A stretch of 64,000 nt of DNA from a virus (IMGVR_UViG_638277085_000001:163399-227398); one strand, 5' to 3'. Counted from the first letter of the stretch, positions 13,098 to 15,276 are shown. Translations and numbers: made by a program. The notes: generated by a model from the sequence alone, not told the origin.

Positions 13098-13173
13098 TGG
13101 CGCCTTATGTTGGACTCGAACCAACGACTCTCTGGTTAACAGCCAGACACTCTACCGACTGAGTTAATAAGGC
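13098..13173 (-). tRNA. tRNA-Asn(GUU), copy 1; CCA encoded
   Basis: Acceptor GCCTTAT/ATAAGGC. Anticodon stem TCTGG/CCAGA, loop CTGTTAA. Confidence 0.6.
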
Positions 13174-13179
13174 AAAATA

Positions 13180-13254
13180 TGGCGGGCGTGGAGAATTTCG
13201 AAATCTCGACCTGACGGTTAACAGCCGTCTGCTCTGCCTCTGAGCTACACACCC
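13180..13254 (-). tRNA. tRNA-Asn(GUU), copy 2 (divergent sequence; atypical palindromic T-arm with a 53-61 mismatch); CCA encoded
   Basis: Acceptor GGGTGTG/CACGCCC. Anticodon stem GACGG/CCGTC, loop CTGTTAA. T-arm GAGAT TTCGAAA TTCTC. Confidence 0.5.
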
Positions 13255-13332
13255 TTTAAATTAAACAGCAATCCTTTTCTCTTTTTCCAAATAAAAGTTT
13301 TGTATTGTTTGCTGAAAGATTGCTTAATTCTG

Positions 13333-13527
13333 TTACGACGTAAACTGCTCGACTTTACAAGAGTCAACATCGTCAAACTTTTCGATTCGTTTAGCTAACA
13401 TTTTAGCCTTTCGCTCAATCGAGCGATCTTCGTAACCGAATTCAGATTTGTTATTGTCACAAGCTAATGCGCTCGACTTGACAACAGTCGAATCATTCAT
13501 TACCATCACTAGTCTGTACATAAACAC
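13333..13527 (-). CDS. Hypothetical protein
   Basis: 64-aa ORF between tRNA genes. Confidence 0.35.
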   Translation of the reverse strand: MFMYRLVMVMNDSTVVKSSALACDNNKSEFGYEDRSIERKAKMLAKRIEKFDDVDSCKVEQFTS

Positions 13528-13536
13528 CTCTGATAA

Positions 13537-13610
13537 TTGGCAGGGACATAGAGATTCGAACTCTAACGAACGGGTTTGGAATCCGTCATGCTGCCGTTAC
13601 ATCATGTCCC
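13537..13610 (-). tRNA. tRNA-Trp(CCA); CCA encoded
   Basis: Acceptor AGGGACA/TGTCCCT is perfect. Anticodon loop TTCCAAA. Confidence 0.6.
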
Positions 13611-13616
13611 TAAAAT

Positions 13617-13690
13617 TTGGTAGCCCCAGACAGACTCGAACTGTCAACGTGCGATTATCGGTCGCGTGTTTTACCGTTAAACTATGGAGC
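13617..13690 (-). tRNA. tRNA-Ile(GAU) (C at position 33 and a C.A at 27-43 in my fold); CCA encoded
   Basis: Acceptor AGCTCCA/TGGGGCT. Anticodon region CGCGA CCGATAA TCGCA. Confidence 0.5.
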
Positions 13691-13755
13691 TAAAGTGAGC
13701 ACATTTCAGTGCTCGTGTTAATCGGTTAAGTGACTAAACTTCCCGGTTAACTAAT

Positions 13756-13854
13756 TGGCGGAAGACTAGGGATTCGAACCCTAACATCACCTCCCGGTGA
13801 CCGACGGTTTTCAAGACCGTTGCCGCTACCCAGAATCTTTCGGCTAAGCCTTCC
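13756..13854 (-). tRNA. tRNA-Ser(UGA), type II, unusually long (96 nt + CCA) with an oversized D-loop
   Basis: Acceptor GGAAGGC/GTCTTCC. Anticodon stem ACGGT/ACCGT, loop CTTGAAA. Variable arm TCACC-GGGA-GGTGA. Confidence 0.5.
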
Positions 13855-13861
13855 ATTAATT

Positions 13862-13937
13862 TGGTAGCGAGTGCCAGAATCGAACTGACCTAAACTAGCT
13901 TATGAGACTAGTGAGTTCACCAGAACTCTAACTCGCA
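13862..13937 (-). tRNA. tRNA with anticodon CAU (Met/Ile2 candidate) and an unpaired 1-72 (U.U); CCA encoded
   Basis: D-arm GAGT-TCTGGTGA-ACTC. Anticodon stem CTAGT/GCTAG, loop CTCATAA. Confidence 0.55.
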
Positions 13938-14038
13938 ATTATTCAACAGCTTGCGTTCTTTGGTCTGTTTATCGCTGTCTGAACTGAGTTCGCCGAGCGA
14001 TCAATAGATTAAGTTGAATTGCAGTATGCAAGCTAAAT

Positions 14039-14124
14039 TTGGTGGAGCGTAGAGGAATCGAACCTCTCTTCCCATTACGGGACACGGATTTACAGTCCGC
14101 TGCCGCACCTTGCGGCTTACGCTC
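14039..14124 (-). tRNA. tRNA-Tyr(GUA), type II; CCA encoded
   Basis: Acceptor GGAGCGT/ACGCTCC is perfect. Anticodon loop CTGTAAA. Variable stem TCCC/GGGA. Confidence 0.65.
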
Positions 14125-14130
14125 CAGAAT

Positions 14131-14205
14131 TTGGTACTCGATACGGGAGTCGAACCCGTCCTACTTCCTTGAAAGGGAAGTGACCTACCGATAGTCGAAT
14201 CGAGC
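14131..14205 (-). tRNA. tRNA-Glu(UUC); CCA encoded
   Basis: Anticodon stem CTTCC/GGAAG, loop CTTTCAA. D-stem is 3 bp. Confidence 0.55.
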
Positions 14206-14269
14206 ATTAAATTGTATATTGATTTGCAAGCTAATCAACTCGCAAAGCGATACACAATGTATCTAATTT

Positions 14270-14346
14270 GGTACGCCGCCCTGGACTCGAACCAGACACC
14301 TGAGAGTTAAAAGCTCCCTGCTCTTCCATGATGAGCTACCGACGCA
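14270..14346 (-). tRNA. tRNA-Lys(UUU), copy 1; CCA encoded
   Basis: D-arm GCTC-ATCATGGAA-GAGC. Anticodon stem GGGAG/CTCTC, loop CTTTTAA. G.G at 7-66. Confidence 0.55.
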
Positions 14347-14354
14347 TTATAAAA

Positions 14355-14429
14355 TCTGGTGGGTCGCAAGAGATTCGAACTCTCACCGTTCTGGTTAAAA
14401 GCCAGATGTACTACCGTTATACGAACGAC
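14355..14429 (-). tRNA. tRNA-Lys(UUU), copy 2 (divergent); CCA encoded
   Basis: Acceptor GGGTCGT/GCGACCC. Anticodon stem TCTGG/CCAGA, loop CTTTTAA. Confidence 0.6.
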
Positions 14430-14435
14430 CCAGAA

Positions 14436-14510
14436 TGTGGTGCACCCCCTCGGAATCGAACCGAGCACTGCGGGACTTCAATCCGCCGCTTTTCCTGATA
14501 AGCTAAGGGT
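14436..14510 (-). tRNA. tRNA-Phe(GAA); CCA encoded
   Basis: Acceptor GCACCCT/GGGGTGC. Anticodon loop TTGAAGT. Confidence 0.6.
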
Positions 14511-14511
14511 G

Positions 14512-14589
14512 CATGGTACGCAAGAAGAGATTCGAACTCTTAACTTCTGGTTTCTAAGACCAGTGCCTCTGCCAGATTGGGCTACTTGC
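14512..14589 (-). tRNA. tRNA with anticodon UAG (Leu-decoding), type I with a short variable loop; A73; CCA encoded
   Basis: Acceptor GCGCAAG/CTTGCGT. D-arm GCCC-AATCTGGCAG-AGGC. Anticodon stem CTGGT/ACCAG, loop CTTAGAA. Confidence 0.55.
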
Positions 14590-14624
14590 GCATTGTTTGT
14601 TTTTGAACGTTACTTCGTTCTTCT

Positions 14625-14660
14625 TCATTGTACATGATGTTTATATCGTTGTAAACATCT
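14625..14660 (-). promoter_or_regulatory. T4-early-like sigma70 promoter (minus strand: A-rich UP, -35 GTTTAC, 18-nt spacer, -10 TACAAT), copy 1 of a tandem pair
   Basis: The reverse complement reads aaaaaagatGTTTACaacgatataaacatcatgTACAATgaag. It sits immediately upstream (minus orientation) of the tRNA block starting at 14589. Confidence 0.5.
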
Positions 14661-14709
14661 TTTTTGAAAAACTTTTCATTAACTTTTGAATGATATTTCG
14701 CTTTTCTCT

Positions 14710-14745
14710 ATTGTACATGATGTTTATATCGTTGTAAACATCTTT
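14710..14745 (-). promoter_or_regulatory. T4-early-like promoter, copy 2 (35/36 identical to copy 1)
   Basis: Same GTTTAC-N18-TACAAT arrangement. The two copies form a direct repeat 80 bp apart. Confidence 0.5.
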
Positions 14746-14903
14746 TTAAATTTATTTTGAAGAACTTAACGTTTTCATTTTTCTATGTGTTAATCTTAAC
14801 ACTCGCTCAAGACATCTTAAACACTAATTTGTGAAAAAGTTCGTTAAATTCTATCATCACGACAGTACTTAACGAGATACGGTCCTAAGCGTATCAAATT
14901 AAT

Positions 14904-15028
14904 TCAGAATGGTGAGACTTGAACTCACTTCGAGTAATAGCGTAAACTAACAGTTGTTGCCAGAGGCTATCAATTATTCTCTACCGAGTATGTTGCAACT
15001 CTGCATTTCCCCATTTCTAGGCATTCTG
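14904..15028 (-). ncRNA. 125-nt tRNA-like element. The termini form a perfect 7-bp acceptor-like helix (CAGAATG/CATTCTG) stacked on a T-arm (GTGAG TTCAAGT CTCAC), with a roughly 90-nt non-cloverleaf body.
   Basis: Acceptor and T-arm complementarity seen directly. There is no D or anticodon arm and no encoded CCA. Confidence 0.35.
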
Positions 15029-15033
15029 AAATA

Positions 15034-15109
15034 TGGCACCCCACAGAAGATTCGAACTTCTAACCTGCGCCTTCGTAGGACGCTGCTCTTCCAATTGAGC
15101 TAGTAGGGC
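15034..15109 (-). tRNA. tRNA-Arg(ACG); CCA encoded
   Basis: D-arm GCTC-AATTGGAA-GAGC. Anticodon stem GCGTC/GGCGC, loop CTACGAA. Confidence 0.6.
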
Positions 15110-15116
15110 ATTAAAC

Positions 15117-15193
15117 TGGTCCGTGACAAGCGATTCGAACGCTTAACTTCTCCGCCCCAAACGGAGTACTCTACCAGATTGAGCTAGTCACGG
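15117..15193 (-). tRNA. tRNA-Pro(UGG), copy 1 (C1-G72); CCA encoded
   Basis: Acceptor CCGTGAC/GTCACGG is perfect. Anticodon stem CTCCG/CGGAG, loop TTTGGGG. Confidence 0.65.
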
Positions 15194-15202
15194 ATTTTAA
15201 AT

Positions 15203-15276
15203 TGGTCGGGACGAAGAGACTCGAACTCTTACCACATGCTCCCAAAGCATGAACGCTACCTTTACGCCACGTCCCG
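15203..15276 (-). tRNA. tRNA-Pro(UGG), copy 2 (C1-G72); CCA encoded
   Basis: Acceptor CGGGACG/CGTCCCG is perfect. Anticodon stem CATGC/GCATG, loop TTTGGGA. Confidence 0.65.

What the first reader, a model, noticed from the sequence alone, without database searches (positions are those of the whole stretch)
13098..15276. Adjacent divergent isoacceptor duplicates (Asn-Asn, Lys-Lys, Pro-Pro) and three distinct CAU tRNAs
Three tandem pairs have identical anticodons but clearly different body sequences. These are Asn GUU at 13098 and 13180, Lys UUU at 14270 and 14355, and Pro UGG at 15117 and 15203. There are also three CAU tRNAs (11451, 13862, 17111), none with classical initiator features. Divergent tandem pairs suggest acquisition from different sources or ancient duplication with drift rather than recent duplication. 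The second Asn copy has an aberrant palindromic T-arm (53-61 U.U) and may be decaying.
Basis: seen in the sequence. Interest (0 to 1): 0.5.

Follow-up and report, generated by a model that had tools for sequence, protein, structure and literature searches.

The report
Same-anticodon tRNA pairs in phage KVP40
The window is the published tRNA gene cluster of Vibrio phage KVP40; its three side-by-side same-anticodon tRNA pairs and three CAU tRNAs are real, intact and mostly already annotated, but the "odd" second Asn tRNA is not decaying: it belongs to a widespread phage-only tRNA design.

Summary
The window is 100% identical to Vibrio phage KVP40. ARAGORN and Rfam confirm Asn-GUU x2, Lys-UUU x2, Pro-UGG x2 and three CAU tRNAs, all on the minus strand.

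- **Prior annotation:** GenBank already lists Lys-1/2, Pro-1/2 and Ile-2. It omits the second Asn and the middle CAU.
- **Pair similarity:** 61-69% identity within pairs, the same as unrelated tRNAs in the array (61 +/- 5%). There is no duplication signal.
- **Adjacency:** all three pairs adjacent is non-random (P about 4e-4).
- **Relatives:** in ten related vibriophages the array is a mosaic of interchangeable tRNA alleles. Each copy is missing somewhere, but every phage keeps at least one Asn, Lys and Pro tRNA.
- **Most likely origin:** divergent alleles of one slot stacked in tandem, giving redundant functional isoacceptors.
- **CAU trio:** elongator Met (11451), a diverged initiator type (13862; U1.U72, A11:U24) and lysidine-type Ile2 (17111).
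- **Second Asn:** its U53.U61 T-arm is invariant in relatives while the other stems covary. The same D-loop and T-arm, with invariant A60, occur in at least 185 distinct phage tRNAs of 17 anticodons and are nearly absent from cellular genomes.

Verdict: ordinary and already known, with one possibly new side observation.

The parts
13098..13173 (-). tRNA-Asn(GUU) 'Asn1': canonical body, G53-C61, G73, encoded CCA
   Evidence: ARAGORN. Rfam 71.1 bits. Annotated as tRNA-Asn-1 in NC_005083.2. Orthologues are 82-99% identical in relatives.
13180..13254 (-). tRNA-Asn(GUU) 'Asn2': D-loop AGAGGCA, T-arm GAGAU-UUCGAAA-UUCUC with U53.U61 and A60, G73, encoded CCA. It is a member of the phage-wide U53.U61 class.
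   Evidence: ARAGORN. Rfam 57.7 bits. Cloverleaf is the minimum-energy fold, z -2.2. Not annotated in the KVP40 record but annotated in phage V07. Conservation and covariation.
14269..14345 (-). tRNA-Lys(UUU) 'Lys1': weak acceptor stem (G1.U72, U4.G69, G7.G66), A73. An invariant accessory copy restricted to this phage clade.
   Evidence: ARAGORN. Rfam 41 bits. Fold z -0.13. 99-100% identical in 7 phages and absent in nt-1, CZ01, F86 and D482. In IMG/VR it is found only in this clade.
14357..14431 (-). tRNA-Lys(UUU) 'Lys2': canonical; acceptor stem GGGUCGU is like E. coli lysT; A73
   Evidence: ARAGORN. Rfam 59.7 bits. 74% identical to E. coli lysT. Alleles in relatives are 75-96% identical, and this copy is absent in phiST2.
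15117..15193 (-). tRNA-Pro(UGG) 'Pro1': C1-G72, A73, G37. An invariant accessory copy restricted to this phage clade.
   Evidence: ARAGORN. Rfam 55.8 bits. 100% identical in 7 relatives; CZ01 is 97% identical with a compensatory pair; absent in VS2, F86 and D482. In IMG/VR it is found only in the VH7D genome.
15203..15276 (-). tRNA-Pro(UGG) 'Pro2': C1-G72, A73, G37; a variable 'core' copy
   Evidence: ARAGORN. Rfam 62.9 bits. 74% identical to E. coli proM. Alleles in relatives are 68-100% identical.
11451..11526 (-). CAU tRNA of elongator Met type: G1-C72 paired; unusual U53-A61
   Evidence: ARAGORN. Rfam 60.1 bits. Annotated tRNA-Met-1. The T-arm CCGAU-UUCGAGU-AUCGG is conserved in relatives.
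13862..13937 (-). CAU tRNA of initiator type, diverged: U1.U72, G2-C71, C3-G70, G4-C69, A73, A11:U24; only one of the three anticodon-stem G-C pairs is kept
   Evidence: ARAGORN. Rfam 37.6 bits. The D482 orthologue is 79% identical to E. coli metZ. Orthologues are listed. Not annotated in the KVP40 record.
17111..17187 (-). CAU tRNA of tRNA-Ile2 (lysidine) type: C4-G69 and C5-G68
   Evidence: ARAGORN. Rfam 59.1 bits. Annotated tRNA-Ile-2. Its best E. coli matches are annotated tRNA-Ile. An Ile-CAU tRNA is present in all T4-like genomes compared in PMC1524935.
14627..14738 (-). Two tandem promoter-like sites (TTTACA-17-TACAAT) inside a direct repeat, upstream of the Leu(UAG)-Phe-Lys2-Lys1 run
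   Evidence: Consensus scan and the sequence itself. These are consensus matches only; function was not tested.
9739..18443 (-). The whole KVP40 tRNA array: 28 canonical tRNAs, one Ala-like UGC gene, five long tRNA-like RNAs, and short ORFs between them
   Evidence: Gene order is conserved in ten related vibriophages.

Best explanation
The six genes are intact, functional isoacceptor tRNA genes inside the KVP40 tRNA array, and the array is a recombination mosaic.

- **Origin (inferred).** In this phage group each array slot carries several very different interchangeable alleles. A pair arises when a second allele of the same slot is captured next to the resident one by unequal or illegitimate recombination between co-infecting relatives. 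Homing endonucleases encoded in some arrays may help. The pairs are not recent copies of one another.
- **Function (inferred from identity elements).** Both members lie 6-11 nt apart in the same transcription unit and carry an encoded CCA. Each has the identity elements of its amino acid: G73 for Asn; UUU plus A73 for Lys; C1-G72, A73 and G37 for Pro. They should therefore be processed, charged and used for the same codons.
- **Redundancy.** Either copy can be lost, but never both.
- **CAU trio.** The three CAU genes are three different functions rather than copies: elongator Met, an initiator-type tRNA and lysidine-type Ile2.
- **Second Asn.** It is a normal member of a phage-specific tRNA architecture (U53.U61 with A60 and D-loop AGAGGCA).
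For: - **Identity of the locus.** The window is 100% identical to KVP40. Lys-1/2, Pro-1/2 and Ile-2 are already annotated.
- **All nine are tRNAs.** All are called by ARAGORN and Rfam and fold as cloverleaves.
- **No duplication signal.** Pair identities of 0.63, 0.61 and 0.69 compare with a background of 0.61 +/- 0.05.
- **Adjacency.** All three pairs are adjacent, P about 4e-4 for random order (arithmetic).
- **Conserved order, mosaic alleles.** Array order is conserved in 11 phages. Per-slot identities fall at either about 1.00 or 0.6-0.9, in patterns that conflict between slots. The Lys region alignment shows the same.
- **Allele swap at one slot.** F86 has an Asn1-type gene and D482 an Asn2-type gene at the same position. 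In F86 an annotated HNH endonuclease gene sits next to it. nt-1 also has an HNH gene in its array.
- **Presence and absence.** Asn1-type is absent in D482, VH7D and phiST2. Asn2-type is absent in F86, VH7D and phiST2. Lys1 is absent in four phages and Lys2-type in phiST2. Pro1 is absent in three and Pro2-type in CZ01. Every phage keeps at least one Asn, Lys and Pro tRNA.
- **Purifying selection on structure.** Compensatory changes occur in Asn2, Lys2 and Pro2 orthologues and in CZ01 Pro1.
- **Doublets are common.** 14-15% of canonical tRNAs in about 240 other phage loci have a same-anticodon partner.
- **CAU assignments.**
Against: - No expression, processing, charging or modification data exist here. 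Function is inferred from sequence and conservation.
- Lys1 and Pro1 are invariant, so they give almost no covariation evidence. Their identity across phages could reflect recent spread rather than selection.
- Lys1 has a weak acceptor stem and folds no better than shuffled sequence.
- The proposed unequal-recombination step was not observed. A very old tandem duplication followed by allele replacement would leave the same pattern.
- The explanation does not say why a redundant copy is retained.
- The host (Vibrio) tRNAs were not available. E. coli tRNAs were used as a stand-in.
Confidence: 0.65

Rival explanations
1. Insurance against tRNA-cleaving host defences. The second, differently built isoacceptor is kept because host or prophage nucleases that cut particular tRNAs recognise body and anticodon-stem sequence. 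Two different bodies make it more likely that one survives. This concerns why the pairs are kept, and it is compatible with the mosaic origin.
For: - Phage tRNAs are known to neutralise such systems. T5 tRNA-Lys(UUU), Thr(UGU) and Asn(GUU) variants overcome PARIS AriB, which cuts between positions 40 and 41 at U36AAUC|A41. His(GUG) and Pro(UGG) gave probable minor cleavage products (PMC12409363; PMC11464382; PMC11555353; PMC10264068).
- The duplicated species here are Lys(UUU), Asn(GUU) and Pro(UGG).
- Read from the sequences, both KVP40 Lys copies and Asn2 have C39 instead of U39: Lys1 UAACUC, Lys2 UAACCA, Asn2 UAACCG. Several relatives' Asn1 alleles carry the exact UAAUCA site.
- Codon usage does not explain the choice of Asn, Lys and Pro.
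Against: - The overlap with AriB targets is post hoc and comes from an E. coli system. Thr(UGU), a prime AriB target, is single-copy in KVP40.
- The anticodon loops of both pair members are identical to, or nearly the same as, the E. coli loops. This is unlike the loop mutations reported for evasion.
- No Vibrio nuclease or host-range data were examined.
- Doublets occur at about the same rate (14-16%) for all kinds of tRNAs in other arrays.
Confidence: 0.25
2. Old tandem duplication in place, followed by drift to saturation. Each pair began as two identical neighbouring copies that have since diverged to the level of unrelated tRNAs.
For: - Adjacency of all three pairs is strongly non-random (P about 4e-4).
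- The Pro pair is at the 91st percentile of background identity (0.69).
- Both Pro copies share C1-G72, A73 and G37.
Against: - Asn and Lys pair identities sit at the 69th and 49th percentiles of background.
- Asn2 belongs to a sequence class found in phages of other phyla, so it was imported rather than derived from Asn1.
- Lys1 and Pro1 are invariant and confined to this clade, while their partners are variable and also present in the distant relatives F86 and D482. This points to later addition.
- Shared identity elements are expected for any two tRNAs of the same amino acid.
Confidence: 0.15
3. Gene dosage. Two genes are kept to supply more tRNA for codons the phage uses heavily.
For: - Asn (6.2%) and Lys (5.0%) are fairly common in 41 long ORFs of the window.
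- Phage tRNAs can sustain late translation when host tRNAs decline (Yang et al. 2021, Cell Systems; cited from the reference list seen and from my own knowledge, not read).
Against: - Pro is only 3.7% of codons and ranks 16th of 20.
- Ala, Thr, Gly, Val, Leu and Asp are all more used yet have a single gene per anticodon. Ala has no canonical gene at all.
- Close relatives do without one copy.
- PMC1524935 notes that KVP40 tRNAs correlate poorly with codon-bias differences.
Confidence: 0.1
4. One member of each pair is a decaying pseudogene. The first reader suggested this for the second Asn.
For: - Asn2 lacks the near-universal G53-C61 pair.
- Lys1 has a G.G mismatch and two G.U pairs in the acceptor stem, the lowest Rfam score of the pairs (41 bits) and a folding z-score of -0.13.
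- The KVP40 record omits Asn2.
Against: - **Asn2:** the T-arm is invariant and the other stems covary in eight phages. Across the class, pairs are 95-100% canonical with 5-6 pair types per position, and N73 matches the anticodon.
- **Lys1:** it shows one substitution in 77 nt across seven phages, and that change improves a pair. The 64-nt spacer next to it varies at several sites and is replaced in QD01.
- **Both:** each keeps an encoded CCA and its identity elements.
Confidence: 0.07

Closest known systems
tRNA gene clusters of T4 and T4-like phages (T4, Aeh1, 44RR, RB69, RB43; KVP40 itself, Miller et al. 2003)
   Same: - A compact single-strand cluster of tRNA genes with short spacers in a T4-related myovirus.
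- It includes a CAU tRNA read as lysidine-modified Ile, which all T4-like genomes compared carry, plus 'pseudo' tRNAs (PMC1524935; GenBank record).
- Closely spaced genes fit the dimeric precursors known from T4 (my own knowledge).
   Different: - KVP40's array is much larger (28 canonical genes against 8 in T4) and contains three same-anticodon doublets.
- The primary KVP40 paper could not be read here, so what it says about the doublets is unknown to me.
Phage T5 tRNA set that neutralises PARIS (AriB) and retron PtuAB
   Same: - A large phage tRNA array that includes Lys(UUU) and Asn(GUU) variants differing from host tRNAs in the anticodon stem.
- KVP40 Lys1, Lys2 and Asn2 also differ from the E. 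coli U36AAUCA41 site at position 39.
   Different: - No resistance or defence-system data exist for KVP40 or Vibrio.
- T5 carries one variant per anticodon, not two.
- Membership in this functional class is untested.
E. coli initiator tRNA-fMet (metZ) and tRNA-Ile2 (ileX)
   Same: - The 13862 lineage shares the unpaired 1:72, G2-C71/C3-G70/G4-C69, A73 and A11:U24. The D482 orthologue is 79% identical to metZ.
- The 17111 gene shares C4-G69/C5-G68, and its best E. coli matches are tRNA-Ile.
   Different: - KVP40's initiator-type copy has U.U instead of C.A at 1:72 and keeps only G30-C40 of the three anticodon-stem G-C pairs. It is 65% identical to metZ.
- Several relatives carry an extra A in the 3' acceptor strand, which makes 1:72 a U-A pair.
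Canonical elongator tRNA T-arm (G53-C61 closing pair, pyrimidine at 60)
   Same: Asn2 keeps U54, U55, C56, purine 57, A58, a 7-nt loop, G18G19 in the D-loop and a G15-C48 pair.
   Different: - It has U53.U61 with A52-U62 and an invariant A60, coupled to a 7-nt D-loop AGAGGCA.
- In the same arrays, 2548 canonical tRNAs have A60 in 7% and that D-loop in 1%.

Membership tests
tRNA (Rfam RF00005) | Cloverleaf with a score at or above the gathering threshold, and an anticodon assigned by an independent tool | tested here: met
All nine genes score 37.6-71.1 bits against a threshold of 29. Cloverleaf is the minimum-energy fold or close to it for all nine.
tRNA (canonical elongator) | G53-C61 pair closing the T-loop | tested here: not met
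   This row applies to Asn2 (U53.U61) and Met 11451 (U53-A61). The other 26 tRNAs of the array have G53-C61. Both exceptions are conserved in relatives.
Recent tandem gene duplicates | Pair members more similar to each other than to unrelated genes of the same kind | tested here: not met
   Pair identities are 0.63, 0.61 and 0.69, against a background of 0.61 +/- 0.05. Between 9% and 51% of unrelated pairs are at least as similar.
Recent tandem gene duplicates | Head-to-tail adjacency on the same strand | tested here: met
   The gaps are 6, 11 and 9 nt, all on the minus strand. The chance of all three pairs being adjacent is about 4e-4.
Bacterial initiator tRNA (tRNA-fMet) | No Watson-Crick pair at 1:72, with G2-C71, C3-G70 and A73 (formylation determinants; my own knowledge) | tested here: met
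   The 13862 gene has U1.U72, G2-C71, C3-G70, G4-C69 and A73. In several relatives an extra A in the 3' strand allows a U1-A72 pair.
Bacterial initiator tRNA (tRNA-fMet) | A11:U24 in the D-stem | tested here: met
   The D-stem is GAGU/ACUC, which gives A11:U24. The feature is conserved in orthologues.
Bacterial initiator tRNA (tRNA-fMet) | Three consecutive G-C pairs at 29-41, 30-40 and 31-39 | tested here: not met
   KVP40 has A29-U41, G30-C40 and U31.G39. The D482 and V07 orthologues keep two of the three pairs.
Bacterial initiator tRNA (tRNA-fMet) | Formylation and use in initiation | not testable with these tools
   This needs biochemistry or tRNA-seq of infected cells.
tRNA-Ile2 (lysidine at C34) | CAU anticodon with C4-G69 and C5-G68 (E. 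coli TilS determinants; my own knowledge, Ikeuchi et al. 2005) | tested here: met
   The 17111 acceptor stem is AGCCCCU/AGGGGCU. Orthologues have GGCCC.... The best E. coli matches are annotated tRNA-Ile. GenBank names the gene tRNA-Ile-2.
tRNA-Ile2 (lysidine at C34) | Lysidine actually present, and charging by IleRS | not testable with these tools
   This needs mass spectrometry or modification-sensitive sequencing.
U53.U61/A60 phage tRNA class (defined here) | D-loop AGAGGCA or AGAGGAA; variable region RGGUC; T-arm G49-C65, R50-Y64, G51-C63, A52-U62, U53.U61; A60 | tested here: met
   Asn2 matches the class consensus at every fixed position.
Nuclease-resistant phage tRNA (T5 tRNA-Lys type) | Differs from the host tRNA at the nuclease recognition site and is not cleaved | tested here: inconclusive
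   The sequences differ from E. coli U36AAUCA41 at position 39. Cleavage, the Vibrio host tRNAs and the host's defence systems were not examined.

The most novel reading that the evidence does not exclude
The 'aberrant' second Asn tRNA may be a member of a previously undescribed, phage-restricted tRNA architecture.

- **Definition.** A fixed elbow made of D-loop AGAGGCA, variable region AGGUC and T-arm GAGAU-UUCGAAA-UUCUC, with U53.U61 and an invariant A60. On this elbow any acceptor stem, anticodon stem and anticodon can be mounted.
- **Extent.** At least 185 distinct sequences with 17 anticodons. The discriminator base matches the anticodon. There is usually one such tRNA per array.
- **Distribution.** It occurs in phages of Gammaproteobacteria, Bacteroidota and Actinobacteria.
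- **Possible meaning.** The elbow may be kept because it is read, or deliberately not read, by some T-loop-recognising factor. Candidates are a modification enzyme, a processing enzyme or a defence nuclease.
Probability: 0.4. Interest if true: 0.65.

Novelty: already known. Interest (0 to 1): 0.33.

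Why it matters
As posed, the finding matters little. It re-describes a tRNA cluster published in 2003, and same-anticodon doublets turn out to be routine in phage tRNA arrays (about one tRNA in seven has a partner).

Two things are useful:

- **A model system.** The KVP40 group shows clearly that phage tRNA arrays evolve as mosaics of interchangeable, very divergent alleles, with at least one gene per amino acid always retained. That makes it a good natural system for asking whether second copies are kept as insurance against tRNA-cleaving defences.
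- **The U53.U61/A60 elbow.** It breaks one of the most conserved pairs in tRNA, yet it is preserved almost letter for letter across phages of unrelated hosts and across amino-acid identities. If it is new and functional, it would point to a phage-specific interaction at the tRNA elbow. It would also give annotators a signature for phage-derived tRNAs.

Tried and rejected
- **Primary paper.** The KVP40 genome paper (Miller et al. 2003) is not held. Prior knowledge was taken from the GenBank record and from PMC1524935.
- **BLAST of the initiator-like tRNA.** A search against E. coli found no tRNA-fMet because no 11-nt word is shared. I replaced it with a global alignment to metZ fetched from MG1655.
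- **Host origin.**
  - All six pair members are only 63-74% identical to the E. coli cognates, barely above the 55-75% range for non-cognates. None is a recent capture from a gammaproteobacterial-type host tRNA.
- **Dosage.** Codon usage does not single out Asn, Lys or Pro.
- **Is the U53.U61 class an 'extra copy' class?** No. Its members have a same-anticodon partner in 16% of cases, against a baseline of 14%.
- **A protein partner encoded next to U53.U61 tRNAs.**
  - Clustering of 1385 neighbouring ORFs from 182 loci gave no universal neighbour.
  - HNH-like and GNAT-like ORFs occur in about 22% of loci.
  - Some clusters are artefacts of ORFs read through tRNA genes.
- **Literature.** Searches for the T-arm motif and for G53/C61 in phage tRNAs found nothing relevant. 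This is absence in the held library only.
- **Lys1 and Pro1 in IMG/VR.** Only the VH7D genome carries them; the other Lys1 D-arm matches did not overlap a Lys tRNA call. No extra covariation data were available.
- **Long tRNA-like RNAs.** Permissive Rfam thresholds gave only tRNA and a sub-threshold YrlA match, which is explained by the tRNA-like part.

Full report
**What the window is.** A 2.4-kb query around the finding is 100% identical to Vibrio phage KVP40 (AY283928.2 / NC_005083.2). Record coordinate equals window coordinate plus 163398. Close relatives are other T4-like vibriophages. The public record annotates 25 tRNAs and 5 'pseudo' tRNAs in this stretch. These include tRNA-Lys-1/-2, tRNA-Pro-1/-2, tRNA-Asn-1, tRNA-Met-1 and tRNA-Ile-2, the last being the CAU gene at 17111. 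The record does not annotate the second Asn (13180), the middle CAU (13862) or Ser-UGA. Newer records of relatives do annotate two Asn genes (phage V07). I could not read the original genome paper.

**Checking the observation.**
- ARAGORN finds 28 tRNAs, all on the minus strand. They include Asn-GUU at 13098-13173 and 13180-13254, Lys-UUU at 14269-14345 and 14357-14431, Pro-UGG at 15117-15193 and 15203-15276, and CAU tRNAs at 11451, 13862 and 17111.
- Rfam's tRNA model scores all nine above threshold, and all fold as cloverleaves.
- Pair identities are 63%, 61% and 69%. The 294 non-isoacceptor pairs in the same array average 61% (sd 5%). Between 9% and 51% of unrelated pairs are at least as similar as the isoacceptor pairs. 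The bodies are therefore as different as any two tRNAs.
- Adjacency of all three pairs is not chance: 8/(28x27x26) = 4e-4.
- The second Asn does have U53.U61. It and Met 11451 (U53-A61) are the only two of 28 genes without G53-C61.

**Comparison with relatives.**
- I fetched the array from ten related phages: nt-1, phi-Grn1, VS2, F86, D482, V07, CZ01, VH7D, phi-ST2 and QD01. Gene order is conserved.
- Each slot holds discrete alleles. Identity to the KVP40 gene is either about 1.00 or 0.6-0.9, and the pattern differs from slot to slot. For example, KVP40 Ile-GAU is identical to nt-1 but 74% identical to phi-Grn1, whereas Val is identical to phi-Grn1 but 82% identical to nt-1. This is the signature of recombination between arrays.
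- Same-slot alleles can be as divergent as the pair members: Glu 73-85%, Tyr 64-87%, Thr 59-70% in several relatives.
- Each pair member is missing somewhere:
  - Asn1-type in D482, VH7D and phi-ST2
  - Asn2-type in F86, VH7D and phi-ST2 (VH7D and phi-ST2 carry a third Asn allele instead)
  - Lys1 in nt-1, CZ01, F86 and D482
  - Lys2-type in phi-ST2
  - Pro1 in VS2, F86 and D482
  - Pro2-type in CZ01
- Every phage keeps at least one Asn, Lys and Pro gene.
- F86 and D482 carry Asn1-type and Asn2-type respectively at the same alternative slot. In F86 an HNH endonuclease gene sits beside it.
- Lys1 and Pro1 are 97-100% identical wherever present and are confined to this clade in IMG/VR. Their partners vary and also exist in the distant relatives F86 and D482.

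**Are both members functional?**
- Orthologues of Asn2, Lys2 and Pro2 show compensatory stem changes, and CZ01 Pro1 does too.
- Each copy carries the expected identity elements: G73 for Asn; UUU plus A73 for Lys; C1-G72, A73 and G37 for Pro. Each also has an encoded CCA.
- Lys1 is the weakest, with G1.U72, U4.G69 and G7.G66, a 41-bit score and a folding z-score of -0.13. Even so, it has one substitution in 77 nt across seven phages, while the neighbouring spacer varies.
- Two promoter-like sites lie upstream of the Leu-Phe-Lys2-Lys1 run.

**Why two copies?**
- Dosage is a poor fit. In 41 long ORFs of the window, Asn, Lys and Pro are 6.2%, 5.0% and 3.7% of codons (Pro ranks 16th of 20). More-used amino acids have a single gene per anticodon, and Ala has no canonical gene.
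- None of the six genes is host-like. They are 63-74% identical to the E. coli cognates, against 55-75% for non-cognates.
Doublets are ordinary.
- An appealing but untested idea is insurance against tRNA-cleaving defences. PARIS AriB cuts Lys(UUU), Thr(UGU) and Asn(GUU), and T5 tRNA variants rescue infection. His and Pro appear as probable minor products (PMC12409363). Both KVP40 Lys copies and Asn2 differ from the U36AAUC|A41 site at position 39.
- That overlap is post hoc, and Thr is single-copy in KVP40.

**The three CAU tRNAs.**
- The 11451 gene has a paired G1-C72 and is annotated Met. It is an elongator type.
- The 13862 gene has U1.U72, G2-C71, C3-G70, G4-C69, A73 and A11:U24, which are initiator hallmarks. 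It keeps only G30-C40 of the three anticodon-stem G-C pairs.
  - Its orthologue in D482 is 79% identical to E. coli metZ, against at most 67% to six other E. coli tRNAs. KVP40's own copy is 65% identical.
  - Several orthologues have an extra A in the 3' acceptor strand.
- The 17111 gene has C4-G69 and C5-G68, its best E. coli matches are tRNA-Ile, and it is annotated Ile-2. Such an Ile-CAU tRNA is present in all T4-like genomes compared in PMC1524935.

**The second Asn.**
- Its T-arm is invariant in eight phages while its acceptor and anticodon stems covary.
It sits in tRNAs of twelve anticodons in that scan, and all of them also share the D-arm GCUCAGAGGCAGAGC.
- The same 20-mer occurs in only 22 stretches of 185,579 bacterial and archaeal genomes. 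Many of these sit in dense tRNA arrays (12-21 tRNA genes within 8 kb in eight of them), and none is from a Vibrio. It occurs on no E. coli chromosome.
- A scan with the D-arm alone shows the coupling. Of 76 such tRNAs, 52 have U53.U61. Only 1.1% of 2891 G53-C61 tRNAs have that D-loop.
- In that unbiased subset the T-stem covaries (A50-U64 to G50-C64), and positions 54 and 58 covary (U-A to A-U).
- Over all 185 unique members:
  - A60 is 100%, against 7% in canonical tRNAs.
  - Stems are 95-100% paired, with 5-6 pair types per position.
  - The class spans 17 anticodons in all, and the discriminator base follows the anticodon: Asn G/U; Val, Lys, Ile, Met and Pro A; Gly and Thr U; His C; Trp, Asp and Gln G; Pro with C1-G72.
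- There is usually one such tRNA per array.
- Cultured phages with the exact T-arm infect Vibrio, Gordonia, Microbacterium, Rhodococcus and Streptomyces. One-mismatch versions occur in Salmonella, Klebsiella, Escherichia, Pseudomonas and Cronobacter phages, and near-full matches in Cellulophaga phages.
- I found no description of this class in the held literature.
- Asn2 is therefore a conserved member of a phage-specific tRNA design. Why that elbow is fixed is unexplained.

**Verdict.** The 'different sources' interpretation is reasonable, and the 'decay' interpretation is wrong. The locus is a known phage tRNA array, and the doublets are ordinary redundant isoacceptors produced by mosaic evolution of the array. 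The one item that may be new is the U53.U61/A60 class.

Noticed in passing
window 15903-16018, 17569-17692, 17702-17815, 17933-18056, 18321-18443 (all minus strand): Five long (114-124 nt) tRNA-like RNAs.
- They have normal acceptor, D and T arms, but a 45-60 nt structured domain replaces the anticodon loop.
- That domain has a covarying hairpin, often with loop UGAYAA, and invariant strands CACACGUAGCA, GCAUAUCAU and AGAUCGUG.
- GenBank calls three of them pseudo-tRNAs and leaves two unannotated.
- They are conserved across all ten relatives, and ARAGORN assigns inconsistent 'introns' and anticodons to them.
- In IMG/VR they are found only in this clade. Their function is unknown.
   Followed up: partly
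window 12186-12257 (minus strand): An Ala-like tRNA (anticodon UGC, G3.U70 present) with mismatches at 5-68, 6-67 and 7-66.
- Rfam scores it 44.9 bits, ARAGORN does not call it, and GenBank labels it 'Pseudo-1'.
- The same allele is identical in phi-Grn1, V07, VH7D and phi-ST2. Other relatives carry a well-paired Ala-UGC allele.
- Ala is the most used amino acid in the window's ORFs.
- This gene, not Asn2, is the more plausible candidate for decay.
   Followed up: partly
window 11451-11526 (minus strand): The elongator Met-type tRNA has U53-A61 instead of G53-C61 (T-arm CCGAU-UUCGAGU-AUCGG). This is conserved in most relatives; the more distant F86 and D482 carry a different T-arm.
   Followed up: partly
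window 14627-14738 (minus strand): A direct repeat of about 80 nt carries two identical promoter-like sites (TTTACA-17-TACAAT) upstream of the Leu(UAG)-Phe-Lys-Lys run.
   Followed up: partly
window about 12640-12660, 14900-14940, 16560-16620, 16740-16800 (minus strand): Spacers contain isolated T-arm-like hairpins (GGTTCGA-type loops, some followed by CCA-like ends) without a full tRNA. They may be remnants of lost tRNA genes or processing signals. They were seen by eye in the sequence only.
   Followed up: no
window 14040-14125 (minus strand): tRNA-Tyr(GUA) with a long variable arm. It is labelled 'Pseudo-2' in GenBank and scores just above threshold as tRNA-Sec in Rfam (49.2 against 47). 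ARAGORN calls it Tyr in all relatives, so the Sec label looks like an artefact.
   Followed up: no
L005 (phage F86) 8481-8867; L002 (phage nt-1) 5145-5588: HNH homing-endonuclease genes sit inside the tRNA arrays of relatives. In F86 the gene lies directly beside the Asn slot that differs between F86 and D482. This is a possible driver of allele exchange.
   Followed up: partly
L003, L006, L007, L009, L010 (orthologues of window 13862-13937): Initiator-type CAU tRNAs of several relatives have an extra A in the 3' strand of the acceptor stem (...CCCACGCA). A compensatory 6-67 change in nt-1 and CZ01 supports that register. In this reading 1:72 becomes a U-A pair.
   Followed up: partly
L012-L260 (IMG/VR loci with U53.U61 tRNAs): About 22% of 182 loci have a GNAT-like acetyltransferase ORF, and a similar share have HNH-like ORFs, within 2.5 kb of the U53.U61 tRNA. 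No universal neighbour was found, and some clusters are artefacts of ORFs read through tRNA genes.
   Followed up: partly
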